Counted from the first letter of the stretch, positions 7,286-63,777 are shown. The stretch: 64,000 nucleotides of DNA from an uncultured Spirochaetaceae bacterium (GCA_964488255.1 CAZAUR010000001.1:259244-323243); one strand, 5' to 3'. Notes: generated from the letters alone by a model not told the origin. Made by a program: numbers and translations.

Positions 7286-8374
7286 CTACCGCGCTCCGAG
7301 GTTCGGGATCCGTCGCCCGTGCACCTCGAAGACCCCGTCGACGATCGACTTGAGCACGGAGCCGGATTCCAGGTTTCCGCGACCGTCTTCGGTCCCGTAC
7401 GCCAGGCGCTTCTCGTCGGCGAGGAGGGATTCGAGCACGGCGGTGGTGCCCTCGCGGACGCCCGAGAGGGCGTAACCGCCTTCGAGGACGTGGACGATCC
7501 GGCCTTCGCAGAGGGTATCGGCGAGGGAACGGAGGATCGCGGACATCGTGCGATAGCCGTCGAGGCTGATCTCCATCGAGGCGAGGGGATCGTCGCGATG
7601 GGCGTCGAAGCCGCAGGAGACGACGATCAGGTCCGGTGCGAAGCCCATCGCGGCGGGGACGATCAAGCGCTCCACGACGCCGATGTACTCCACGTCGCCG
7701 CAGCCCGGCGGCATAGGGATGTTCAGCGTCGTGCCCAGTCCGCGACCTTCGCCTTCTTCGCCGAAGTCGCCGGTTCCCGGGTAGAACGGGAACTGGTGCG
7801 TGGACGCGTAGAGGACGCTCGGATCGTCCTGGAGAATGTGCTGGGTTCCGTTGCCATGATGCACGTCCCAATCGAAGACGAAGATGCGCGGCGCTCCGCA
7901 CTCTGCCTGGAGGGCACGCACGGCGACCGCCACGTTGTTGAAGAGACAGAAGCCCATGGAGCGCGCGGCTTCGGCGTGGTGGCCCGGGGGTCGGACCGCG
8001 GCGATGCCCCGTGCGACGTCGCCTTCGAGCACCCGTCGGGCGAGATCGATCGTCCCGCCCGCGGCGAGGCGAGCGACGTCGAAGCTCGAGGGCGTGTGAT
8101 AGGTGTCCGCGTCGATCCGGCCCGGCGGCAGCTCGCGCGTGGTCTCGAGCGCCTGGAGCATGCGCGCGTCGTGGGCGCGCAGGATCTCGTCGGGCTCGGC
8201 TTCGCGCGGCGACACGAGCGTGACGTCTTCGCGGAAGGGGTCGAGCGCTTCCGAGAAGGCGATCAACCGCTCGGGACGCTCGGGGTGACCGTCGGGGCCG
8301 CGGTGGCTCTGGTAGCGGGCGTCTTCGACGACCTCGACCGTGGGCGTGGGAGCTTCGGGGGTTGCCTCGGTCAT
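7286..8374 (-). CDS. Histone deacetylase-family (acetoin utilisation/acetylpolyamine amidohydrolase-like) deacetylase
   Basis: 362-aa ORF with RPPGHHAE, DWDVHHGNGTQ and GFDAH motifs. Confidence 0.85.
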   Translation of the reverse strand: MTEATPEAPTPTVEVVEDARYQSHRGPDGHPERPERLIAFSEALDPFREDVTLVSPREAEPDEILRAHDARMLQALETTRELPPGRIDADTYHTPSSFDVARLAAGGTIDLARRVLEGDVARGIAAVRPPGHHAEAARSMGFCLFNNVAVAVRALQAECGAPRIFVFDWDVHHGNGTQHILQDDPSVLYASTHQFPFYPGTGDFGEEGEGRGLGTTLNIPMPPGCGDVEYIGVVERLIVPAAMGFAPDLIVVSCGFDAHRDDPLASMEISLDGYRTMSAILRSLADTLCEGRIVHVLEGGYALSGVREGTTAVLESLLADEKRLAYGTEDGRGNLESGSVLKSIVDGVFEVHGRRIPNLGAR

Positions 8375-8455
8375 GGGAGTCTCGCCGGGCCGTCGTGCGG
8401 CGTCTGGGGTCGTCTGGGGATCGGAGCCAGGGTCGGGGGTGGCGCTCGCGACCGT

Positions 8456-9118
8456 TCAGGGCGCGTCCTTGTCGCGAAGCGCCTCTTCGAGTCGCTCCAT
8501 CGCCGTCGCTACGCGCTCGAGGTTCTCGTTCAAGGCATCGAGGTCGCGCTTGCGCGGAATGTCGGAGAGGTTGCGAAGGTCGCTGCGTTCGATCGCGTTC
8601 GAGATCGCGGACTGGATCGACTCGCGCAGGTCCGGGAGTCCCGAGAAGGGGCGTCGCCGGGCGTTTTCGCGCTCTTCGTCGGTCTCGGCGTCCTCATCGC
8701 GCTCGTCGTCACGACGCGCGAAGGGCGAGCGACGTTCGTGTCCCTCTGCTTCGTCCCAGCCGAATCCGCGACCGACCCCGGGCGGGTTGTCGACGAATTG
8801 CTTGAAGCGATCCTGGAACTCGCCGAGTCCATCCGTCGCCTCGTCGACGCTCTTCTTGATCGCACCGTAGAGCGCGTCGCCGCCGCGGGAGAGGATCTGC
8901 GTCAGGAGCGTGTCGGACGGATCTTCCTTGTCGCGCTGGTTGCCGACGAGGATCTGGGAGAGCGCCACGCGCGTGATGTCCTCGCCCGTCTCCTTGTCGA
9001 CGACGCGGACCTCCTCGCCTTCGTCGAGGAGCTTCGCAATCCCCTTCAGCGTGATGTAGCGGCTCGTCTCGGTGTTGTAGAGCTTACGGTTGGCATACCG
9101 CTTGATGAGGATCGCCAT
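8456..9118 (-). CDS. phaR: Polyhydroxyalkanoate synthesis repressor PhaR
   Basis: N-terminus MAILIKRYANRKLYNTETSRYITLKGIAKLLDEGEEVRVVDKETGEDIT is the characteristic PhaR DNA-binding domain. Confidence 0.85.
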   Translation of the reverse strand: MAILIKRYANRKLYNTETSRYITLKGIAKLLDEGEEVRVVDKETGEDITRVALSQILVGNQRDKEDPSDTLLTQILSRGGDALYGAIKKSVDEATDGLGEFQDRFKQFVDNPPGVGRGFGWDEAEGHERRSPFARRDDERDEDAETDEERENARRRPFSGLPDLRESIQSAISNAIERSDLRNLSDIPRKRDLDALNENLERVATAMERLEEALRDKDAP

Positions 9119-9212
9119 GATGGGGGCAGTCTAGCGCGCGATCCCCGACTTCCTTCCGGATGGAGCGCGCGAACCGCGGGCGCCGGGTGCCGAGCCGCCG
9201 CGTGTCGCGGCC

Positions 9213-9711: not shown

Positions 9712-10938
9712 TCACGCCTGCGCTCCGTCGAAGAGCTCTTCGCCGATGCGCTGGAGCCCGGCGAGTCCATCGATGTCCCGATCCCGCTCGGCGACGAGAT
9801 GGAAGCCGACGTCGCGTCCGGCGACGCGCCGGGCGATCCGCCGCCGCGTCTCCTCGGCGTCGCGTCGCGCCGTCGCCGCTTCGCGCACGATCTCGTCGAG
9901 CATCGCCGCATCGCGCTCTGCGTCGTCGCCGCCGGTCCGGGCGAGGGCGTCCGCGAGTCGCGCGCGATCCCGAGCGATCGCTTGATCGTCCCCGGGCGAG
10001 AGCCACTCGGTCGCATCGACTTCGTCGGGCCACGGACGGATGCGATTGAGGACGACGGCCGACAGCGGCGCGCCGAGCTCGTCGAGGGCGTCGAGGAACT
10101 CGAGGGTGCCGGGCTCCTGTCCCGATCGCGCGCCGCCCACCAGGACGAAGCGCGTGTCGTCGCCGACGAGGATCTCCTCGACCCGGGACGTGCCCGCCTG
10201 GAACCCGTCGGTCAGGCTCGACACCGCGGAGAGGAACTCCGAGAGGTCGTCGAGGAAGCCGACGCCGGCGATCCGTTCGACCAGCCCCATCATGCGATGG
10301 AGCGACTGCCCGAAGACCTTGAAGCCGAAGCGGCTCGCGGACATCGCCGGGCGGACGAGCGCCTGCACGAAGCGACCCTCGAGGAATTCGCGCAATCGTC
10401 GCGGCGCGGACAGGAAGTCGAGAGCGTGGCTCGCGGGGGGCGTGTCGACGACGACGAGGTCGTAGCGGCCCGACTCGACGGCTTCGCGCACCTGCTCGAG
10501 GGCGGCGTATTCGGCGCTTCCGGCGAGCGCCTCGGAGAGGTGGCGATAGATGCGGTTCTCGAGCACCCGGGCGCGCGTGGCCGCGTCCGGCGCGAGCCGT
10601 TCGACGAGACCGTCGAAGGTCGGCTTGGGGTCGAGCATCATCGCGTCGAGGGGGATCGACCCGGTCTGGCCGTCGGTTCCCGCGATCACGACCGGTGCCG
10701 GATCGGAGCCGAGACCCTCGAGTCCGAGCGCGTCGGCGAGGCGGCGCGCCGGATCGATCGTGAGGACGAGGGTGCGCCGGCCCGCGCGCGCCGCGCGCAG
10801 CGCGAGGGCCGCCGCGACGGTCGTCTTGCCGACGCCACCGGTTCCGGCGCAGATCAGGACCCGCGCGGATTCGAGGGCTTCCTCGAGTCCGACGCCGTCC
10901 CGTCGATTCCCGCGCGCGCCCTTGTTCGCTCGGCTCAT
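9712..10938 (-). CDS. ArsA/Get3-family P-loop ATPase (second of a pair)
   Basis: 408-aa ORF with ICAGTGGVGKTTVAAALALRAA P-loop followed by TIDPARRLADALG. Confidence 0.8.
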   Translation of the reverse strand: MSRANKGARGNRRDGVGLEEALESARVLICAGTGGVGKTTVAAALALRAARAGRRTLVLTIDPARRLADALGLEGLGSDPAPVVIAGTDGQTGSIPLDAMMLDPKPTFDGLVERLAPDAATRARVLENRIYRHLSEALAGSAEYAALEQVREAVESGRYDLVVVDTPPASHALDFLSAPRRLREFLEGRFVQALVRPAMSASRFGFKVFGQSLHRMMGLVERIAGVGFLDDLSEFLSAVSSLTDGFQAGTSRVEEILVGDDTRFVLVGGARSGQEPGTLEFLDALDELGAPLSAVVLNRIRPWPDEVDATEWLSPGDDQAIARDRARLADALARTGGDDAERDAAMLDEIVREAATARRDAEETRRRIARRVAGRDVGFHLVAERDRDIDGLAGLQRIGEELFDGAQA

Positions 10939-11927
10939 GCGGCACTCGCTCCCGCGCGATCCGCTTCGGGCCAGACGGGTTCGTCGAGCACGCGGTGCGC
11001 CTCGGTCTCCCAGCCGCTGCCCGCTTCGGCGCCGAGCGCGAGGACGGGCAGGTCGACGACCGGGAGATCGCAGGCGGCCGACACCCGTTCGCGTTCCCGC
11101 GCGGCGAGGGTGGCGCGGGCGTGGGCATGTTCGACGAGGCCGGAGAGCGCGGTGCGCGACGGCCAGGCCTCGAAGTCGAGATCGGCGGACGGGTTCGCGA
11201 GGACGTCGCGAAGCGCGTCGGTCGGGGCGGGCGGGCAGCGGTTCACGACGATGCGATCGACGCCGATGTCGATGTCGCTGCGGGCGCGCGCGACGAGCTC
11301 GATCGTCTCCCGGACCGGCAGCTCTTCAGGCAGCGTGACCGGCAGCAGCACCGTCCGCTCGCGGTCGTGCACCAGCGCTTCGACCCAACCGGCGTGCCGC
11401 GCGAGCGGTCCTGCGCGGACGGTCTGCTGCGCGACCCGCGGCACGTCCAGGAAGGTGAGGCCGTGTCCGGTCGCGGGCGCATCGACGACGATCAGGTCGT
11501 AGGTCGGTCGCCCGCGCCGATCCGTGCTCTGCTCTACGTGCCAGAGCTTTCCGAGCAGGATCAGCTCGCGCCATCCCGGGGCGGCCTCGAGCAGCTGGCG
11601 GAAGGTCTCGCTGCCGAGGATGCGGTCGGTGACGAGGCCGAGGCGGGTCTGGAGACGCACGTAGTGGGCGAGGGCCTCGTGCGGGTCGATGCGAATCGCG
11701 TCGAGGTCCGGCCGCAGCGTTCGGCCCTCGTATCCGAGCAGATCCGGGTCGCGCTCGAAGCGCGCGGCGGCGGACTCGATCGGGTCGGTCTCGGCGAGCA
11801 GGACGCGCTGGCCCTCGCGTCGGGCGGCCTCCGCGAGCAGGCAGGCGACGGTGGTCTTCCCGACGCCGCCCTTGCCAGTCACGATGATCAGCCGGTGGTC
11901 GAGCAGGGGCCGGACAGGGGCCGTCAT
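10935..11927 (-). CDS. ArsA/Get3-family P-loop ATPase (first of a pair)
   Basis: 330-aa ORF with IIVTGKGGVGKTTVACLLAEAA P-loop, then ETDP and DAPATGH motifs. 4-nt overlap with the downstream paralogue. Confidence 0.8.
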   Translation of the reverse strand: MTAPVRPLLDHRLIIVTGKGGVGKTTVACLLAEAARREGQRVLLAETDPIESAAARFERDPDLLGYEGRTLRPDLDAIRIDPHEALAHYVRLQTRLGLVTDRILGSETFRQLLEAAPGWRELILLGKLWHVEQSTDRRGRPTYDLIVVDAPATGHGLTFLDVPRVAQQTVRAGPLARHAGWVEALVHDRERTVLLPVTLPEELPVRETIELVARARSDIDIGVDRIVVNRCPPAPTDALRDVLANPSADLDFEAWPSRTALSGLVEHAHARATLAARERERVSAACDLPVVDLPVLALGAEAGSGWETEAHRVLDEPVWPEADRAGASAA

Positions 11928-12128
11928 GGGGTCCTCGGCGCGTTCGGGGGTCGTCGGTAGGGAAAACCCGTCATCGGGCCCTCGAGTCTAGCTCTCCGGG
12001 CCCGGGGGCGTCCTCAAGTCGTGTGCGAAAGGAGCCGAAGAATCCGGAGGACAAAGTGTTTTTCGCGCCCGGTCCGGTCGAGGGAACGACCCGACCCGCC
12101 GGCGGCGCGGCCGACCCGGGGAATCGCC

Positions 12129-26603: not shown

Positions 26604-27293
26604 GTGGACGAGATCCCCCGGCAGCTCTCGATCGATCAGTGTTTCGTGCATCGCCGCGCGCCTTCGCGCCGACGCAAGAAGCCCGGACGAAAGCCCGCGC
26701 CGCGAGCGCGCGTGTTGCACCGAAAGCGGGTGGCGGTTCGGAAGGAGCACCCGGTTCATGTGACCCTTCGGATGCGTCGGGACGTGCCGTCTCTTCGCAA
26801 CCCGCGCTGGCTGCGCGCGTTTCGCGAGACGCTCGGACGTGGCTGTGAGCGCGGGGACTTCCGCGTGGTCCACTACTCGGTCCAGCGCGATCACATCCAC
26901 ATGATCGTGGAGGCCGCCGGCAAGCAGGCGCTCGCCTCGGGGATGAAGAGCATCGGCTCGAGGGTCGCTTTGGCCGTGAATCGTGTGTTCCATAGGAAGG
27001 GGCGCGTCCTGGACGGGCGCTTCCACTCGGTCGTGCTCGGGACGCCCACGCAAGTGCACCGAGCGCTGCGGTACGTCCTGCTCAACGAACGCAAGCACCG
27101 CCGCCAGAGAGGCGAACGACTCAGCAAGAGTACGACCGCCGACCCGGCCTCGTCCGGCCGCTTCTTCGACGGCTGGAAGGAGAGGCTCAAAGCCGCCGTG
27201 CCAACCGAAGTCGCCCGCCCCCGCTCCTGGCTACTCACGAGAGGCTGGAGGAGGGGCGGCAATCCGATCTCCCTCTCGGAAGTCCCGGGCTGA
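26604..27293 (+). CDS. IS200/IS605-family Y1 (HUH) transposase-like protein, REP-associated tyrosine transposase (RAYT)-like
   Basis: 229-aa ORF with HUH motif DHIHMIVEA and Tyr motif ALRYVLLNERKH. Preceded by a locally AT-richer intergenic stretch (26480-26600). Confidence 0.8.
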   Translation: MDEIPRQLSIDQCFVHRRAPSRRRKKPGRKPAPRARVLHRKRVAVRKEHPVHVTLRMRRDVPSLRNPRWLRAFRETLGRGCERGDFRVVHYSVQRDHIHMIVEAAGKQALASGMKSIGSRVALAVNRVFHRKGRVLDGRFHSVVLGTPTQVHRALRYVLLNERKHRRQRGERLSKSTTADPASSGRFFDGWKERLKAAVPTEVARPRSWLLTRGWRRGGNPISLSEVPG

Positions 27294-42293: not shown

Positions 42294-42317
42294 TCCCGCG
42301 CCGGACGGCGCGTCGCC

Positions 42318-44624
42318 ATGGCTACGCTCGCGCCGCGCCCGGCCCTTGCCGGTGCCCCACGTCCCACCCCGAGGAGCCCACGCGTGTCCACCGTCGAGAC
42401 CCGCCACACCTTCTGCCGCATCTGCGAATCGCTCTGCGGGCTCGAGGTCGACGTCGACGAGGCGGGCCGCGTCCAGGCGATCCGGCCCGACGAGGCGCAC
42501 GTCGAGACCGCTGGCTTCGCTTGTGTGAAGGGCCTGAAGCAGCACAGGCTCTACGACACCCCCGACCGGCTCCGCCATCCGATGAAGCGGGTCGGCGACC
42601 GCTTCGAGCGGATCTCCTGGGAGCAGGCCCTCGCGGAAATCGGCGCGAAGGTGCAGGCGCTGCGGGCCGAGCAGGGCGCCGACTCGATCGGCATGTACGT
42701 GGGCACCGCCGCCGGCTTCAGCCTCTTGCATCCGATCTTCGCGCAGGGGTTCATGAACGGTGTGGGCTCGAAGAGCATGTACGCGTCTTCGACCCAGGAC
42801 TGCAGCAACAAGTTCGCGGTCGCCCGGGAGGTCTACGGCTTCCCCTTCACGCAGCCCTTCCCGGACCTCGACCACGTGCGCTGCCTGATCATCGTCGGCG
42901 CGAATCCCCTCGTCTCGAAGTGGAGCTTCCTGCAGGTCCCCAATCCCGGGAAGCGGTTGCGGGAGATCGAAGCCCGGGGCGGCGACGTCTGGATCGTCGA
43001 TCCGCGGCGCACCGAGACCGCGAAGGTCGCTGGCGAACACGTGCCGATCCGTCCCGGCACGGACGTCTTTTTCTACCTGAGCTTCCTGCACGAGCTGATC
43101 GAGACCCGTGGCATCGACGAAGCCCTGCTGCGCGAACACACGAGCGGGTTCGACACGATCCGCGCCCTCGCGGCCGAGTGGCCGGCGGAGCGGACCGCAG
43201 AGGTGACGCGTATTCCGGCGGAGATCCTGCGTGCGATGGTGCGGAGCTATCGCGAGGCGGACGGGGCCGCGCTCTACTGCTCGACCGGCGTCAACATGGG
43301 CGGGCAGGGCGCGCTCGCCTTCTGGATCCAGGAGGTCATCAACGCCGTCTCCGGCAACCTGGACCGGCCGGGTGGCCTCCTGCTGGGACGCGGGATCGTC
43401 GACTTCGCGCGCTTCGGCGCGAAGTCGGGCTTCGGTCTGCGAGAGGACCGCTCGCGGGTCGGCGGCTTCGCGTCGGTGAACGATGCCTATCCCGGTGGCA
43501 TCCTCGCCGACGAGATCCTGACGCCGGGCGAGGGGCAGCTCCGCGCGCTCTTCGTGACCGGCGGGAACCCGCTGATCACGATGGCCGGCGCCAATCGCCT
43601 GCGCGACGCCTTCGAGGAGCTCGAGCTGCTCGTCACGATCGACATCCTGCCGAACGAGACCGGGCAGATCGCGGACTACATGCTGCCGGCGACGACCCCC
43701 TTCGAGCGGCCGGATCTGCCCTTCGCGTTTCCGCTCCTGATGGGCATGCAGTCGCATCCCTACCTGCAGGCCACGGAGGCGGTGATCCCCGCCGACGCGG
43801 AGCAGCGCGACGAGGCGAGCATCTACCTGGACCTCGCGCGCGCGTGCGACAGCCCGCTCTTCGGGTCACGAATCGCGCAGCGCGTGCTCGAGTGGGTCGC
43901 TCGGCGCTTCGGCCCCTCGAGGTCGGGTCTGCCGGCGTCCCTGCCGCAGGCCGGCTTGATGAGCCTGCTCCTGCGTGTCACCGGCCACGGCAGCTTCCGT
44001 CGACTCCTCGGCGATCGCCACGGCAGGCGTCTCGCGCCGCAACAGGCGAACAGTTATCTCGGCAAGCAGGTCGCGCACGAGGACGGCCGGATCGCGCTCG
44101 CGCCCGAGGCGCTGATGGCGCGCGCCACCGGCCTCGAAGACGCGTTCGAGTCGGAGCGGCGCGAGCCCGGGAGGCTCAAGCTGATCACGAAGCGGCACGT
44201 GAAGACCCACAACTCGTGGACGCACAACGAGCCGAGCTTCATGACCGGCACCTTCACGACGAATCACGTCTACATGCACCCCGAGGACGCGAAGGCGGCG
44301 GGGCTGACAGGAGGCGATCTCGCGGACGTCCGGTCCGAGACGGGTCGCATCCGGTTGCCGGTCCAGCTCCTGGCCGACCTGCAGCCCGGGACGGTCGCGA
44401 TTCCGCACGGCTGGGGACATCAGCACGCGGAAGGGCTGTCGACGGCGCGAAAGACGACCGGGGTGAACGTGAACGTGTTGGCGAGATCGGGGCCGGGGGC
44501 GGTGGAGCCGTTGTCGGGCATGTCGCGCCTGACCGCGATTCCCGTCGACGTCGGGCCCGCGGACGGGCCGCTCGATCCGCGCAGCTGGGCGGGGATCCCC
44601 GCTTCCGAAGCCCAGAAGCATTAG
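42318..44624 (+). CDS. Molybdopterin (bis-MGD) oxidoreductase-family protein
   Basis: 768-aa ORF with the N-terminal 4Fe-4S motif CRICESLCG...FACVKG and length and architecture typical of the family. Substrate unknown. Confidence 0.8.
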   Translation: MATLAPRPALAGAPRPTPRSPRVSTVETRHTFCRICESLCGLEVDVDEAGRVQAIRPDEAHVETAGFACVKGLKQHRLYDTPDRLRHPMKRVGDRFERISWEQALAEIGAKVQALRAEQGADSIGMYVGTAAGFSLLHPIFAQGFMNGVGSKSMYASSTQDCSNKFAVAREVYGFPFTQPFPDLDHVRCLIIVGANPLVSKWSFLQVPNPGKRLREIEARGGDVWIVDPRRTETAKVAGEHVPIRPGTDVFFYLSFLHELIETRGIDEALLREHTSGFDTIRALAAEWPAERTAEVTRIPAEILRAMVRSYREADGAALYCSTGVNMGGQGALAFWIQEVINAVSGNLDRPGGLLLGRGIVDFARFGAKSGFGLREDRSRVGGFASVNDAYPGGILADEILTPGEGQLRALFVTGGNPLITMAGANRLRDAFEELELLVTIDILPNETGQIADYMLPATTPFERPDLPFAFPLLMGMQSHPYLQATEAVIPADAEQRDEASIYLDLARACDSPLFGSRIAQRVLEWVARRFGPSRSGLPASLPQAGLMSLLLRVTGHGSFRRLLGDRHGRRLAPQQANSYLGKQVAHEDGRIALAPEALMARATGLEDAFESERREPGRLKLITKRHVKTHNSWTHNEPSFMTGTFTTNHVYMHPEDAKAAGLTGGDLADVRSETGRIRLPVQLLADLQPGTVAIPHGWGHQHAEGLSTARKTTGVNVNVLARSGPGAVEPLSGMSRLTAIPVDVGPADGPLDPRSWAGIPASEAQKH

Positions 44625-57335: not shown

Positions 57336-57964
57336 AGATCCTCGAGGCAGAGTTGATCGCGTCGGCGCCCCGCGTCGAGAAGCTGCCCGAATCGGGGCTG
57401 CCCGAGGTCGCGTTCCTCGGCCGCTCGAACGTCGGCAAGTCGAGCCTGTTGAACGGCCTCGCGCGCCGCAAGAAGCTCGCGCGCACGAGCAGCACGCCGG
57501 GCAAGACGCGCGAGCTCGTGCTCTTTCGCATCCGGACCGATCGCGGCGAGATCGGCCTCGTCGACCTGCCGGGCTACGGCTGGGCCAAGGTCTCCCGCCA
57601 GGAGCGCAAGAGCTGGCAACGTCTCGCGGAGGGCTACCTCGCGCAGCGGGAGTCGCTGTGTCTCGCGATGCTGCTGCAGGACGTGCGGCGGACCTGGAGC
57701 GAGGACGAGGATCTGCTGCTCCAGTGGCTCGCGGAACGTGACGTCCCCGGGCGCGTCATCCTCACGAAGACCGACAAGCTGAAGCAGATGAAGCGCAAGG
57801 AAGCGGTCAAGAAGCTCCGCGCGCAGATCGGCGAAGGCTGGGGCAAGCCGATCGCGACGTCTTCGCAAAAGGGCGACGGGCTCGACGTCGTCTGGCGAAC
57901 TTGTTTCGAGTTCGCGTATCCCGAACGTTTCGCCGTCCCGGACGGCGAGTCGCCGCCCGCCTAA
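57332..57964 (+). CDS. engB: Ribosome biogenesis GTPase YihA/EngB
   Basis: GTG at 57332 (GTGA overlap). Contains EVAFLGRSNVGKSSLLN, DLPGYG and TKTDK. Confidence 0.85.
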   Translation: MKILEAELIASAPRVEKLPESGLPEVAFLGRSNVGKSSLLNGLARRKKLARTSSTPGKTRELVLFRIRTDRGEIGLVDLPGYGWAKVSRQERKSWQRLAEGYLAQRESLCLAMLLQDVRRTWSEDEDLLLQWLAERDVPGRVILTKTDKLKQMKRKEAVKKLRAQIGEGWGKPIATSSQKGDGLDVVWRTCFEFAYPERFAVPDGESPPA

Positions 57965-58716
57965 CGAAAGAGATCCATCGACGGATCCCGCAGGATGTCG
58001 CCCACCCCGCCATCCCCCTCGATCGGGAACCCCTCGACCAGCACGACCGGGATCCCCGCGCTCTTGAGCATCAGCAGCCCGGCCGCTGCCGCGAGCTGAT
58101 CCGACGTCGCCGGTTGCGTCACGAGCAGCTCGCGCCCGATCCGGTCCCGCGATCCTCGATCGTCCTTGATCGGGGCGAGACCGGCGGATCCGAGGGCCAC
58201 GTCGACGAGCCCGTCGCGCCAGGGGCGGCCGAAGGTGTCGGTGATGACGACCGGCGTGTGCGTGCCGTCCTCGGAGAGCGCTTCGTGCAGGCGCCGCGCG
58301 GACGCGTCCGGGTCGAGGGGGAGCAGGACGGCGATGTCCTCGTCGGGCGCGTTCGACAGGTCGACGCCGGCGTTGGCGCACACGAAGCCGTGCTTGGTCT
58401 CGCAGATGAGGACGTTGTTGCCGCGTCGGACGATGCGCGTGCTCTCGTCGAGCACGATCTGGACCTGGCGCGGATCGCGCTCGTGGTCGGCCGCGATCTC
58501 CTTCGCTTCGTCGCTCGGGGTGACGTCTTCGAGTCGGACGAGGCGCCCCTCGGCCTTGGACACGATTTTCTGGGCGATCACCACGACGTTGCCGTCGAGG
58601 GCGACGCCCGCGGCGTCCGCGGCTTCGCGGATCATTGCGGCGAGGTTGGTGCCGGGTTCGACCTCCGGGAGGCCGGGGAGCGGGACGAGGCGCAGGGGCC
58701 CCGGAACGTCAGACAT
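57961..58716 (-). CDS. cofE: Coenzyme F420-0:L-glutamate ligase (stand-alone CofE type)
   Basis: Internal ATG at 58716. Contains VVIAQKIVSKAEGR, CANAGVDLSN and VVITDTFGRPWRDG. Confidence 0.8.
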   Translation of the reverse strand: MSDVPGPLRLVPLPGLPEVEPGTNLAAMIREAADAAGVALDGNVVVIAQKIVSKAEGRLVRLEDVTPSDEAKEIAADHERDPRQVQIVLDESTRIVRRGNNVLICETKHGFVCANAGVDLSNAPDEDIAVLLPLDPDASARRLHEALSEDGTHTPVVITDTFGRPWRDGLVDVALGSAGLAPIKDDRGSRDRIGRELLVTQPATSDQLAAAAGLLMLKSAGIPVVLVEGFPIEGDGGVGDILRDPSMDLFR

Positions 58717-59356
58717 CTTCCTCTCCATCGGCCGCTTCGAGGAGCAGGGCGCGTGTGCGCTTGCCGCCGCCTTCGGTCTCGAGGAACGCGTCGAGATCCT
58801 CGGGCTGGTCGAGGTCGATCGCGAGGGAGGGCAGGGCGAGCTCGAAGATCGGCACGCCCGCCGCCGCCGCCGCCTCGCCATGCCGCTTGGCGCTGTCGGG
58901 TCCGAAGCAGCAGGGGATGAGCCCGGCCGGATGATGCAGGAGCGCGGACGTGCCGCCGTCCGCTGACGGCGCGAGCCAGACGCCGGGCGCTTCGCCGCTC
59001 GCGGTCTCGAGCAGCTGGGCGAAGTCGCTCGCGAGGGCGCCCGCCACGTCGCCCAACACGAAGAGGAGATCCCCTCCGTCGGCACAGAGTCGCTCGCGCC
59101 CGTCTTCGAGCGCCGCATTCAAGCCGGGCTCCGGTCGCAGCAGCACTTCCGCACCGCCGGCGCGTGCGTGCGCGGCGACGGTCTCGTCCGGTGTCGTGAC
59201 GGCGATGCGTTCGATTCCAGGCGTCGCGGTCAACGCTTCGATCAGGTCTTCCAGCATTGCGAGGGTCAGCCGTCGCCGCAGCCCGTCGGGCAGGCGCGAC
59301 AGCAGCCGGGTCTTGCTGTCCTCGAGGTTCTTGACCGGGATCAGCGCGATCGTCAT
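58709..59356 (-). CDS. cofC: 2-phospho-L-lactate (or analogue) guanylyltransferase CofC/FbiD
   Basis: Internal ATG at 59356 (ATGA overlap with the cofD stop). Contains MTIALIPVKNLEDSKTRL and APSADGGTSALL. Confidence 0.75.
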   Translation of the reverse strand: MTIALIPVKNLEDSKTRLLSRLPDGLRRRLTLAMLEDLIEALTATPGIERIAVTTPDETVAAHARAGGAEVLLRPEPGLNAALEDGRERLCADGGDLLFVLGDVAGALASDFAQLLETASGEAPGVWLAPSADGGTSALLHHPAGLIPCCFGPDSAKRHGEAAAAAGVPIFELALPSLAIDLDQPEDLDAFLETEGGGKRTRALLLEAADGEEDV

Positions 59357-63246: not shown

Positions 63247-63306
63247 CGATGCACGAGGGCGAGCGCGCTGTCCGATTCGGCGCAGCGCCGCCCATTGGGG
63301 GACGAG

Positions 63307-63648
63307 ATGGCCAAGAAGGTCGACTGGTACTACTTCCGCAAGGGTTGAACGAGCTGCACGCGAGCGTCCAAGTTTCTGGACGCCAAGAAGATCACGGTGA
63401 AGGAAGAGATCCCGGCGAGCCGCAAGCTCGGCGCGAGCGACGCCAAGGCGATCGCCAAGGAATCTTCCAGGGTCTACGTCGCGAAGGGCAAGAAGCTCGA
63501 TCTCTTCGAGATGAAGAGCGCCAGGATCGGCGAGGTCGTCGAGAAGATGCTCGGTCCGACCGGGAATCTCAGAGCGCCCACGATGCGCGTCGGAAAGACG
63601 ACGGTGGTCGGGTTCAACGAGGACACGTTCTCGGACGTTCTTCTTTGA
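63307..63648 (+). CDS. ArsC/Spx/YffB-family glutaredoxin-fold protein, candidate selenoprotein (UxxC; in-frame TGA at 63346-63348)
   Basis: ATG 63307 gives MAKKVDWYYFRKG-TGA-TSCTRASKFLDAKKITVKEEIP..., in the same frame as the 83-aa ORF 63397-63648 (ending ...NLRAPTMRVGKTTVVGFNEDTF). The TGA sits at the first Cys of the family CxxC. A hairpin follows 15 nt downstream. Confidence 0.6.
63364..63383 (+). promoter_or_regulatory. Bacterial SECIS-like stem-loop
   Basis: GCGTCCA-AGTTTC-TGGACGC: a perfect 7-bp stem and a 6-nt loop with G at loop position 2. The loop begins 22 nt after the TGA. Confidence 0.5.
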
Positions 63649-63777
63649 TGCGGCTTTGGGCGTCTCTGCTCGAGGTCGACCGGTGTGCTCGTTGGGCGAC
63701 GCCGGGCCTTTTGATGCGGCTTTGGGCGTCTCTGCTCGAGGTCGACGGGTGTGCTCGTTTGGCGACGCCGATGGGGA
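63646..63777. repeat. Tandem duplication, about 66 bp x 2
   Basis: TGATGCGGCTTTGGGCGTCTCTGCTCGAGGTCGAC(C/G)GGTGTGCTCGTT(T)GGCGACGCCG... occurs at 63646 and again at 63712. The first copy starts at the stop codon of the preceding gene. Each copy contains GGCGTC...GACGCC and a GGTCGACC palindrome. Confidence 0.85.

What the first reader, a model, noticed from the sequence alone, without database searches (positions are those of the whole stretch)
63307..63648. Probable UxxC selenoprotein of the ArsC/Spx family with a SECIS-like hairpin
The ORF track breaks this locus at TGA 63346-63348. The short upstream piece (ATG 63307, MAKKVDWYYFRKG) and the 83-aa downstream ORF are in the same frame.

Read-through gives a 113-codon product with the layout of ArsC/Spx/YffB glutaredoxin-fold proteins: a beta-strand, then CxxC followed by a basic helix (here U-TSC-TRASKFLDAKKI), and a C-terminal LRAPT...VVGF region. 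The TGA lies exactly where the first redox Cys sits. That placement is the hallmark of genuine Sec/Cys pairs.

Fifteen nt downstream is a perfect 7-bp hairpin, GCGTCCA(AGTTTC)TGGACGC, with a G in the loop. This is within the distance range expected for bacterial SECIS elements. A gene starting at Met 63397 would lack the whole redox motif.
Basis: partly seen in the sequence, partly recalled or inferred. Interest (0 to 1): 0.75.

Follow-up and report, generated by a model that had tools for sequence, protein, structure and literature searches.

The report
Misannotated ArsC-like selenoprotein gene (UxxC)
This is a real small redox-protein gene whose in-frame TGA almost certainly encodes selenocysteine, but it belongs to a selenoprotein family that has been catalogued since 2008, so it is a correct call and not a discovery.

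Summary
ATG 63307, in-frame TGA 63346-48 and the 83-aa ORF share one frame, and a perfect 7-bp hairpin (63364-83) starts 15 nt after the TGA.

The 113-aa read-through product (U replaced by C) scores 112.7 bits against NCBIfam NF041106 "ArsC family (seleno)protein" (cutoff 85). The annotated 83-aa ORF alone scores 66.7.

All 32 family loci found in other genomes, from several phyla, have TGA at this codon; 29/29 analysed also have ATG 13 codons upstream and 28/29 a Shine-Dalgarno site, with a third-position wobble pattern in between. Cys-form homologues (CxxC) align at the same column.

The hairpin meets all published bacterial SECIS criteria. It recurs with a loop G in 27/29 Sec-form loci but only 2/6 Cys-form loci, and shows compensatory changes.

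A confident model of a Cys homologue has a thioredoxin-like fold closest to Spx, ArsC and YffB. The protein fails the Spx, ArsC and Grx family thresholds.

The family is listed as "Arsenate reductase 2 / arsenate reductase-like, UxxC" (Zhang & Gladyshev 2008; 2026 review), predicted but never verified experimentally.

No sel genes or tRNA-Sec lie in the 64-kb window, so the machinery could not be tested. The substrate is unknown.

Verdict: supported, a new member of a known kind, low novelty.

The parts
63297..63302 (+). Shine-Dalgarno-like GGGGGA, 4 nt upstream of the ATG
   Evidence: Read directly from the sequence. 28 of 29 orthologous loci have an SD-like tetramer at -16..-5 of the same ATG, while nucleotide identity in -25..-1 is otherwise only 0.31.
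63307..63648 (+). Full coding sequence of the ArsC-like selenoprotein: 113 aa plus stop, with TGA at codon 14 read as Sec
   Evidence: Translation. NF041106 score 112.7 bits against cutoff 85, covering model positions 1-107 of 107. The 83-aa ORF alone (63397-63648) scores 66.7 bits and covers model positions 36-107 only. 29/29 loci have ATG and 29/29 have TGA in register. Identity by codon position upstream of the TGA is 0.94/0.93/0.56.
63346..63348 (+). In-frame TGA, predicted selenocysteine codon (U14), first residue of the U-T-S-C redox motif
   Evidence: TGA at this column in 32/32 genome loci and in 3/3 loci recovered only through their C-terminal truncated proteins. TGT or TGC in Cys-form family members. 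Among the best 150 representatives: 45 CxxC, 11 W (the one checked at DNA level, P0074, has TGA), 91 N-terminally truncated.
63355..63357 (+). TGC, Cys17, the presumed resolving cysteine of UxxC
   Evidence: Conserved in 31 of 32 loci; L030 has Ser. Cys or Ser in the representatives.
63364..63383 (+). SECIS-like hairpin inside the coding region: 7-bp stem (63364-70 / 63377-83), apical loop AGUUUC (63371-76)
   Evidence: Meets all published bacterial SECIS criteria: 7-bp stem, 6-nt loop, G at loop position 2 followed by U, 22 nt from UGA to loop, dG -10.9 kcal/mol (criteria from PMC13188914). Across 29 loci, 81.9% of cells are paired against 69.4% in shuffles (0/500) and 27-51% in slid controls, and 5 of 8 pairs have double changes. 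27/29 Sec forms against 2/6 Cys forms have a hairpin with the loop G.
63547..63582 (+). Family signature M81-LGPTGNLRAPT-92, including the Pro expected to lie next to the redox centre just before a core beta-strand
   Evidence: M81, L82, G83, P84, T85, G86, N87, R89, A90 and P91 are invariant and L88 and T92 at least 90% conserved in 41 aligned family members. In the model of the Cys homologue the equivalent Pro (P90) immediately precedes strand 91-94.

Best explanation
63307-63648 (+) is one gene encoding a 113-residue cytoplasmic redox protein. It belongs to the 'ArsC family (seleno)protein' / 'arsenate reductase-like, UxxC' family (NCBIfam NF041106).

How it is made:
- Translation starts at ATG 63307.
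- At UGA codon 14 the stop signal is overridden. The 20-nt hairpin that begins 15 nt downstream, with a GU in its apical loop, acts as a bacterial SECIS element. It recruits SelB-GTP-Sec-tRNA(Sec), and selenocysteine is inserted.
- The ribosome then unwinds the hairpin and reads it as A20-S-K-F-L-D-A26.

How the protein probably works:
- It has a thioredoxin/glutaredoxin-like fold of the ArsC/Spx/YffB type.
- Sec14 sits at the N-terminal cap of helix 1 and Cys17 one turn later.
- Together they most likely cycle between selenol/thiol and selenenylsulfide to reduce a substrate that is not yet known.

Shown here: the frame, conservation of the TGA, Cys homologues at the column, conservation and covariation of the hairpin, family membership, and fold class.

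Inferred: actual Sec insertion, SelB dependence, oxidoreductase chemistry and the substrate.

The 83-aa ORF and the 83-91-aa 'hypothetical proteins' in databases are truncations made by gene callers.
For: - Family membership: NF041106 112.7 bits against cutoff 85, with full model coverage. The truncated ORF scores 66.7 bits.
- 32/32 genome loci from Myxococcota, Gammaproteobacteria, Gemmatimonadota, Eisenbacteria, Krumholzibacteriia and Phycisphaerae/Planctomycetota have TGA at the same codon.
- 3/3 loci found without N-terminal bias show ...DW(Y/F)YFRKG-TGA-TSC.
- 29/29 have ATG, 28/29 have an SD site, identity jumps from 0.31 to 0.83 at the ATG, and codon-position identity is 0.94/0.93/0.56.
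- Cys-form members pass the same model: P0055 106.1 bits, P0093 104.7 bits. They have TGT or TGC at the column. 45 CxxC representatives share the N-terminal strand.
- SECIS: all four published criteria are met, covariation exceeds both controls, and the hairpin is enriched in Sec forms over Cys forms, 27/29 against 2/6, Fisher p = 0.004.
- TGA is an ordinary stop elsewhere in the window. For example, murE and many other genes end in TGA, so the codon is not reassigned.
- Fold: the AF2 model of Cys homologue P0055 has pLDDT 90.8, with strand 4-10, Cys14 at the cap of helix 15-26, and Pro90 before strand 91-94. Top Foldseek hits are Spx, ArsC-related proteins, YffB and then Grx.
- Literature: the family is listed as a predicted selenoprotein family.
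Against: - No selA, selB, selD or tRNA-Sec in the 64-kb window or in any held flank, so the organism's ability to decode Sec is not shown here.
- The hairpin alone is not statistically unusual (z = +0.43; 2.9% of TGAs have one by chance).
- RNAalifold returned no consensus structure. Part of the stem is imposed by the conserved ASKFL(D/E)A peptide.
- Two of six Cys forms (L051, L057) retain a SECIS-like hairpin.
- 10 of 29 Sec-form loci miss at least one SECIS criterion: 8 only the energy threshold, and 2 lack the loop G.
- According to the 2026 review, no member of the family has been shown experimentally to contain selenium.
- The redox function is inferred only from the motif and the fold.
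Confidence: 0.9

Rival explanations
1. TGA 63346 is a true stop. The real gene is the 83-aa ORF from GTG 63397, or another downstream start, and the upstream 13 codons are a chance or leader ORF.
For: This is how gene callers annotate it. Most database homologues are 83-91 aa. The 83-aa ORF still matches NF041106 positions 36-107 at 66.7 bits.
Against: - The region between the ATG and GTG 63397 is conserved as protein, with third-position wobble and an SD site before the ATG.
- Called downstream starts are inconsistent among orthologues, giving products of 79-99 aa.
- The truncated product falls below the family cutoff and lacks strand 1 and the redox motif.
- Cys forms are full length.
Confidence: 0.03
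2. The UGA is read through, but with an amino acid other than Sec. This could be Trp or Cys inserted by near-cognate or suppressor decoding, or a local TGA reassignment, with no SelB or SECIS involved.
For: The Sec machinery was not found in the sequence available. Some database entries translate the codon as W.
Against: - The one W entry checked at DNA level (P0074) has TGA at the column and does not translate to its database sequence under table 11, consistent with a code-4 gene call.
- TGA terminates many genes in this window, so the codon is not reassigned.
- The conserved hairpin with a loop GU at a fixed 22-23 nt spacing is what SelB-dependent decoding requires, and it is depleted in Cys forms.
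- The Sec/Cys pair lies at a CxxC redox site.
Confidence: 0.04
3. The locus is a pseudogene, or the TGA is a sequencing or assembly error for TGC or TGT.
For: A single-base change separates TGA from TGC/TGT, and Cys forms exist.
Against: TGA is present in 32/32 independent assemblies from different phyla and samples, in 3 further loci, and in near-identical contigs L047 and L052. There is strong purifying selection on both sides of the codon.
Confidence: 0.01
4. The hairpin is only a by-product of the conserved peptide A-S-K-F-L-D-A in GC-rich DNA and has no RNA-level function. Sec insertion, if it happens, uses another signal.
For: - The fold is not more stable than shuffles.
- 2.9% of TGAs have such a hairpin by chance.
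- Cys forms L051 and L057 keep a SECIS-like hairpin, and L048 keeps a strong stem without the loop G.
- RNAalifold gave no consensus.
Against: - Pairing is kept when the peptide changes: KSSKFMEG, RAARFLVD, AAKVLGA and RSQGFLA each have their own complementary arms, and one clade shifts register by 1 nt.
- Covariation score is 0.299 against 0.133 in shuffles (0/500) and at most 0.19 in slid controls.
- The loop G is at least 90% conserved.
- Four of six Cys forms lack a hairpin with the loop G.
Confidence: 0.07

Closest known systems
NCBIfam NF041106 'ArsC family (seleno)protein' = 'Arsenate reductase 2 (cd03032, UxxC)' of Zhang & Gladyshev 2008 (PMC2398784) = 'Arsenate reductase-like protein, UxxC' in the 2026 review (PMC13188914)
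   Same: Scores above the curated cutoff over the whole model. It has the same UxxC motif with one Sec, the same mix of Sec and Cys forms, and the same marine/metagenomic distribution.
   Different: Nothing essential; this is a member. This copy comes from a 70% GC genome whose closest relatives are Myxococcota MAGs, and it is annotated in databases only as a truncated 83-aa hypothetical protein.
'ArsC-like' selenoproteins of Desulfotalea psychrophila and Desulfuromonas acetoxidans (Zhang et al. [quoted passage not shown]
   Same: Sec replaces the N-terminal catalytic Cys of an ArsC-fold protein.
   Different: The GOS ArsC-1 group is UxxS and matches Pfam ArsC and TIGR00014. The window protein is UxxC and fails both. 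I did not compare it directly with the Desulfotalea or Desulfuromonas sequences.
Spx/MgsR redox-sensing RNA-polymerase-binding regulators (TIGR01617; PDB 1z3e, 3gfk, 6gho)
   Same: These are the best structural matches (Foldseek probability 0.97-1.0). They have the same N-terminal CxxC at the helix-1 cap and a C-terminal Pro...GF region.
   Different: TIGR01617 score is 24.6 against cutoff 75. TM is only 0.49-0.56 with rmsd 6-7 A. The central region is predicted to contain a beta-hairpin at residues 55-68. From my own knowledge, not tested here, Spx is helical there and uses that subdomain to contact RNA polymerase.
Glutaredoxin-coupled arsenate reductase ArsC (R773 type; PF03960, TIGR00014) and YffB (PDB 1rw1)
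   Same: Same fold class, with a nucleophilic Cys/Sec after strand 1.
   Different: Pfam ArsC 15.3 bits against a gathering score of 24, and no TIGR00014 hit at E <= 1. The arsenate-binding Arg triad was not tested. There are no ars genes next to it.
Bacterial SECIS consensus (bSECISearch model, as summarised in PMC13188914 Fig. 2A)
   Same: Loop 3-9 nt, stem 4-16 bp, G followed by U within the first two loop positions, 16-37 nt from the UGA, and MFE <= -7.5 are all met.
   Different: It is a minimal single hairpin with no extended lower stem. In AT-richer orthologues the stem is weaker than the -7.5 kcal/mol criterion (8 of 29).

Membership tests
NF041106 ArsC family (seleno)protein (arsenate reductase-like, UxxC) | Whole-protein HMM score at or above the curated cutoff (85 bits), with full-length model coverage | tested here: met
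   112.7 bits, E = 1.1e-32, residues 5-108 matching model 1-107 of 107. The 83-aa ORF alone scores 66.7 bits on model 36-107.
NF041106 ArsC family (seleno)protein (arsenate reductase-like, UxxC) | A U/C-x-x-C motif directly after the first beta-strand, at the N-terminal cap of helix 1 | tested here: met
   U14-T-S-C17. In the model of Cys homologue P0055, the strand is 4-10 and the helix 15-26, with C14 and C17 at the cap. The motif is conserved in 31/32 loci.
Bacterial selenoprotein gene (general criteria) | Cys-containing homologues that align Cys with the in-frame UGA | tested here: met
   P0055, P0084 and P0093 have TGT or TGC at the column. L057-L059 likewise. 45 CxxC representatives.
Bacterial selenoprotein gene (general criteria) | Protein-level conservation on both sides of the UGA in many independent sequences | tested here: met
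   32/32 loci. Unbiased 3/3. Wobble pattern 0.94/0.93/0.56 and SD site in 28/29.
Bacterial selenoprotein gene (general criteria) | A bacterial SECIS element: 4-16 bp stem, 3-9 nt loop, G in the first two loop positions, 16-37 nt after the UGA, MFE <= -7.5 kcal/mol | tested here: met
   7 bp, loop AGUUUC, 22 nt, -10.9 kcal/mol. Criteria quoted from PMC13188914. bSECISearch itself was not available.
Bacterial selenoprotein gene (general criteria) | SECIS conserved in TGA-bearing orthologues, with compensatory changes | tested here: met
   81.9% paired against 69.4% in shuffles (0/500), and 5/8 pairs with double changes. 27/29 have the loop G at 22-23 nt. Cys forms 2/6. Caveats: RNAalifold gave no consensus, and the sequences are phylogenetically related.
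Bacterial selenoprotein gene (general criteria) | selA, selB, selC (tRNA-Sec) and selD present in the same genome | not testable with these tools
   Only 64 kb of the genome is available. No tRNA, no Rfam hit and no sel genes among all coding segments. None in the held flanks.
Bacterial selenoprotein gene (general criteria) | Selenium incorporation shown experimentally | not testable with these tools
   The 2026 review lists the family under 'predicted with high confidence', not 'experimentally verified'.
ArsC, glutaredoxin-dependent arsenate reductase (PF03960 / TIGR00014) | Score at or above the Pfam gathering score (24) or the TIGR00014 cutoff (106) | tested here: not met
   PF03960 15.3 bits. 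TIGR00014 is not among the hits at E <= 1.
ArsC, glutaredoxin-dependent arsenate reductase (PF03960 / TIGR00014) | Arsenate-binding Arg triad (R60/R94/R107 in R773 ArsC, from my own knowledge) and ars operon context | tested here: inconclusive
   The Arg triad was not aligned rigorously. Context shows no ars genes: the neighbours are a PEP-CTERM protein, a RomY-like protein and ftsEX, and no neighbour is conserved across phyla.
Spx/MgsR RNA-polymerase-binding regulators (TIGR01617) | Score at or above the cutoff of 75.05 bits | tested here: not met
   24.6 bits. True Spx/MgsR-type Bacillus relatives score 113-116 bits on TIGR01617 and only 32-35 bits on NF041106.
Spx/MgsR RNA-polymerase-binding regulators (TIGR01617) | Close structural superposition, including the central subdomain | tested here: inconclusive
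   Spx structures are the top Foldseek hits (probability about 1.0), but TM is 0.49-0.56, rmsd 6-7 A and best E = 1.6e-3. The central region is predicted to contain a beta-hairpin.
Glutaredoxin (PF00462) | Score at or above the gathering score of 22.9 | tested here: not met
   14.0 bits, residues 8-33 only.

The most novel reading that the evidence does not exclude
Spx proteins are the nearest solved structures. The family could therefore be a selenocysteine-containing Spx-like redox sensor that binds RNA polymerase, which would be the first selenoprotein transcription regulator, and not an enzyme. A milder version is that the invariant K60-G-K62 and MLGPTGNLRAPT motifs, together with the predicted central beta-hairpin, define a new substrate site. 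In that case the family is neither an arsenate reductase nor an Spx, and carries out an undescribed Sec-dependent reduction in mostly aerobic marine lineages.
Probability: 0.05. Interest if true: 0.6.

Novelty: new member of a known kind. Interest (0 to 1): 0.2.

Why it matters
The main value is in annotation. In most public MAG and metagenome records this gene is cut to an 83-91-aa "hypothetical protein", or its TGA is mistranslated as Trp. In both cases the redox centre is lost.

Reading it correctly adds one selenoprotein to a Myxococcota-like genome and implies that the organism has the Sec-decoding trait.

Two open points remain. No member of this family has been verified experimentally as a selenoprotein, and its substrate is unknown. 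Because TGA-bearing forms appear to be common among close homologues across several phyla, the family is a reasonable target for biochemical work. The finding does not change any concept.

Tried and rejected
- **Single-sequence folding** of 63340-63400 was not significant. It is kept as a caveat.
- **Rfam** gave no hit, so no Rfam family reached its gathering score here.
- **ARAGORN** found no tRNA or tRNA-Sec in the window or in 39 loci.
- **RNAalifold** on the 29-sequence alignment returned an empty consensus. The likely cause is a 1-nt register shift in the Krumholzibacteria/Phycisphaerae clade. I used explicit pair counting instead.
- **My first hairpin script mis-defined the loop**. Its loop, spacing and criteria columns should be ignored; one search replaces it.
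- **A second selenoprotein candidate**, the in-frame TGA at 8456-58 (-), is only the phaR-like stop followed by a histone-deacetylase-like gene.
- **Conserved gene neighbourhood** was searched across 28 loci. There is no neighbour conserved across phyla. The two largest clusters were antisense shadow ORFs of the focal gene.
I modelled the natural Cys homologue P0055 instead, which is 59% identical.
- **The 218 mismatches between the window and L047** were an alignment offset caused by the 66-bp duplication.

Full report
**1. The observation**

The coordinates are exact.
- ATG 63307 is followed by 13 sense codons (MAKKVDWYYFRKG) and then TGA at 63346-48.
- The same frame runs on to the stop at 63646-48. 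The listed 83-aa ORF begins at GTG 63397, which is codon 31 of that frame.
- Read-through gives 113 residues carrying U14-T-S-C17.
- The hairpin GCGTCCA / AGTTTC / TGGACGC occupies 63364-63383 and begins 15 nt after the TGA.
- An SD-like GGGGGA lies 4 nt before the ATG.

Taken alone, the hairpin is weak evidence. The 61-nt segment folds no better than dinucleotide shuffles (z = +0.43). In this 70% GC window, 28 of 969 TGA triplets (2.9%) are followed by a perfect hairpin of at least 7 bp with SECIS-compatible geometry.

The combined pattern is unique. Of 970 TGA triplets, 271 have at least 10 open codons before and at least 80 after. Only this one also sits in a UxxC or CxxU motif with a coding-like downstream frame.

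**2. What it is**

With U replaced by C, the 113-aa product matches NCBIfam NF041106, "ArsC family (seleno)protein". The score is 112.7 bits against a cutoff of 85 (E = 1e-32), covering the whole model, positions 1-107. The 83-aa ORF alone reaches 66.7 bits and covers only model positions 36-107. The 30 N-terminal residues, including the 13 upstream of the TGA, therefore contribute about 46 bits.

The protein falls below threshold for four related families:

| Family | Score (bits) | Threshold (bits) |
|---|---|---|
| Pfam ArsC (PF03960) | 15.3 | 24 |
| Pfam Glutaredoxin (PF00462) | 14.0 | 22.9 |
| TIGR01617 Spx/MgsR | 24.6 | 75 |
| TIGR00014 ArsC | no hit at E <= 1 | 106 |

**3. Comparative evidence for translation through the TGA**

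A scan of one genome per species returned 46 loci. Fourteen are distant Spx/MgsR-type genes of Bacillus and relatives; the two I scanned, L033 and L043, pass TIGR01617 and fall below the NF041106 cutoff.

The other 32 loci come from Myxococcota, Gammaproteobacteria/Pseudomonadales, Gemmatimonadota, Eisenbacteria, Krumholzibacteriia and Phycisphaerae/Planctomycetota. All 32 have TGA at the same codon, inside MAKKVDWY(Y/F)·R··G-TGA-T··C.

MAKKVDWY was one of the scan patterns, so I made two checks that are free of that bias:
- Three loci recovered only through truncated C-terminal database proteins all show an upstream in-frame ...DW(Y/F)YFRKG-TGA-TSC. Their N-termini differ (MAPARKSRKVDWYY..., or a GTG start with AKKIDWFY).
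- A library-wide phmmer search with a Cys form returned 45 CxxC representatives at 31-50% identity. They share the same N-terminal strand, (V/I)DW·Y·R··C··C.

In the 29 non-redundant Sec-form loci:
- The start is ATG in 29/29 and codon 14 is TGA in 29/29.
- 28/29 have an SD-like site.
- Pairwise nucleotide identity rises from 0.31 in the 25 nt before the ATG to 0.83 in codons 1-13.
- Identity by codon position is 0.94/0.93/0.56, the signature of purifying selection on a protein.

TGA is an ordinary stop elsewhere in the window, so the codon is not reassigned.

Database proteins of 112-115 aa are of two kinds. Some are genuine Cys forms: P0055 with TGT, and P0084 and P0093 with TGC. Others carry W at the column; the one I checked at the DNA level (P0074) has TGA there, which fits a code-4 gene call. 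The remaining top hits are 79-99-aa truncations with inconsistent start points.

**4. The hairpin as a SECIS element**

The 2026 review states the bacterial consensus as follows:
- a 3-9 nt apical loop and a 4-16 bp upper stem;
- a G, usually followed by G or U, in the first two loop positions;
- 16-37 nt between the UGA and the loop;
- MFE of -7.5 kcal/mol or lower.

The window element has 7 bp, loop AGUUUC, 22 nt spacing and -10.9 kcal/mol, so all criteria are met.

Among the 29 loci, 27 have a hairpin with the G in the first two loop positions at 22-23 nt. Nineteen meet every criterion, 8 fail only the energy threshold (AT-richer genomes), and 2 lack the G.

Explicit pair counting gave the following:
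- 81.9% of cells are paired, against 69.4% in column shuffles (0 of 500 reach the observed value) and 27-51% when the 3' partners are slid.
- The covariation score is 0.299, against 0.133 in shuffles.
- 5 of 8 pairs show changes on both sides.

The stem is rebuilt with different sequences where the encoded peptide differs: UCCUCCA/UGGAGGG, CCGCCAG/CUGGUGG, and CGCAGGG/CCUUGCG with a 1-nt register shift.

As a negative control I obtained DNA for six Cys forms. Only two, L051 and L057, keep a hairpin with the loop G. One keeps a strong stem without the G, one has a weak irregular hairpin without the G, and two have no hairpin. Comparing 27/29 with 2/6 gives Fisher p = 0.004, although the sequences are not phylogenetically independent.

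Three caveats apply. RNAalifold gave no consensus. Part of the stem is dictated by the conserved ASKFL(D/E)A peptide. bSECISearch itself was not available.

**5. Fold and likely mechanism**

The model is confident, with pLDDT 90.8 and pTM 0.83. Its elements in order are strand 4-10, helix 15-26, strand 30-36, helix 43-52, beta-hairpin 55-68, helix 74-80, strands 91-94 and 97-100, and helix 104-111.

Cys14, which corresponds to Sec14, caps helix 1. The invariant Pro of LRAPT precedes strand 91-94. This is the arrangement expected of a thioredoxin-fold redox centre.

Foldseek against the PDB ranks Spx first (6gho, 3l78, 3gfk, 1z3e), then ArsC-related proteins (3gkx, 2m46, 2kok) and YffB (1rw1), and then glutaredoxins. 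Probabilities are high, but TM is 0.5-0.56, rmsd 6-7 A and the best E-value 1.6e-3. The sequence search of the PDB is equally weak, with 2m46 best at E = 0.003. The fold class is therefore right, and this is a separate branch.

The mechanism I commit to has two parts:
- SelB-mediated Sec insertion at codon 14, directed by the intragenic hairpin.
- A Sec14/Cys17 selenenylsulfide redox cycle in a small cytoplasmic reductase.

My confidence that the gene encodes Sec is about 0.9. My confidence in the oxidoreductase role is about 0.6. The substrate is unknown.

Gene context gives no hint. In Myxococcota the gene lies between a PEP-CTERM protein and a RomY-like protein followed by ftsEX, envC-like, ctpB and xseAB, with cofCDE and ccmEF upstream. 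No neighbour is conserved across phyla.

**6. Comparison with what is known**

- "ArsC-like" selenoproteins are in the 2006 bacterial selenoproteome survey.
- The GOS study lists "Arsenate reductase 2, cd03032, UxxC" with 42 Sec sequences in 21 samples and 238 Cys homologues. It also lists a separate "ArsC 1, pfam03960, UxxS" group.
[quoted passage not shown] It cites the GOS paper and places the family under "predicted with high confidence", not "experimentally verified".

The window gene is a member of that family. It is not a member of ArsC proper, Spx/MgsR or glutaredoxin by their curated thresholds.

**7. What could not be tested**

No selA, selB, selD or tRNA-Sec lies in the window. Every coding-like segment was scanned, as were the held flanks. 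With only 64 kb available, this says nothing about the rest of the genome.

**8. Verdict**

The feature is real and is usually mis-annotated, but it belongs to a selenoprotein family that is already catalogued. It is a new member of a known kind, with interest of about 0.2.

Noticed in passing
window 63644-63770: A 66-bp unit that begins at the stop codon of the selenoprotein gene is tandemly duplicated (1.9 copies, 96% identical). The window and contig L052 have two copies, and the otherwise near-identical contig L047 has one, so it varies between strains. Each unit folds into two GC-rich hairpins, and the first unit ends in GGGCCUUUU. It could be a terminator-like 3' element. No other copy exists in the window.
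   Followed up: partly
window 8456-8458 (-), between 8456-9130 and 7286-8455: This is the only other place where two coding segments with high GC3 join in frame across a TGA. It is simply the stop of a PhaR-like gene followed by a histone-deacetylase-family gene that starts a few codons later. It is not a second selenoprotein.
   Followed up: yes
public protein databases (P0001-P0270): Most homologues are annotated as truncated 79-99-aa hypothetical proteins with inconsistent starts. A minority carry W at the Sec column, and the one checked at DNA level (P0074) has TGA there. Among the best 150 representatives at 50% identity there are 45 CxxC, 2 CxxS, 1 SxxC, 11 W and 91 without the N-terminus.
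   Followed up: yes
L030:3040-3051 (Krumholzibacteriia MAG); P0156: One Sec-form orthologue has U-T-S-S instead of UxxC, and one representative has W-T-T-S. Two Cys forms are CxxS. The resolving Cys is therefore not universal in the family, which hints that a mono-selenol mechanism is possible.
   Followed up: no
model of P0055, residues 43-80 (window codons about 43-81, 63433-63549): The region between the second and third core strands is predicted to be a helix, a beta-hairpin (55-68, carrying the invariant K60-G-K62) and a helix. From my own knowledge, Spx and ArsC structures are all-helical here. This may explain the modest TM scores of about 0.55.
   Followed up: partly
window 42294-44624 (+): A molybdopterin oxidoreductase related to formate dehydrogenase alpha and thiosulfate reductase (best 204 bits, below all equivalog cutoffs) has an uninterrupted frame. 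This enzyme class is often a selenoprotein, but here there is no in-frame TGA.
   Followed up: no
window 9712-11987 (-): Two adjacent ArsA/Get3-fold ATPases resemble the mycobacterial BagB/BagA pair (254 and 149 bits, both below cutoff).
   Followed up: no
window 26604-27293 (+): A weak match to REP-associated tyrosine transposase (40.8 bits, cutoff 80). The repeat at 63644-63770 has no further copies in the window, so I found no link between the two.
   Followed up: partly
window about 57961-59118 and upstream; L052:4565-6913: An F420-biosynthesis cluster (cofE, cofC, cofD) and cytochrome c maturation genes (ccmA, ccmC, ccmE, ccmF) lie just upstream of the locus. A RomY-N-terminal-domain protein lies just downstream, which fits a Myxococcota origin. 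This order is conserved in the related Myxococcota contigs L054-L056.
   Followed up: partly
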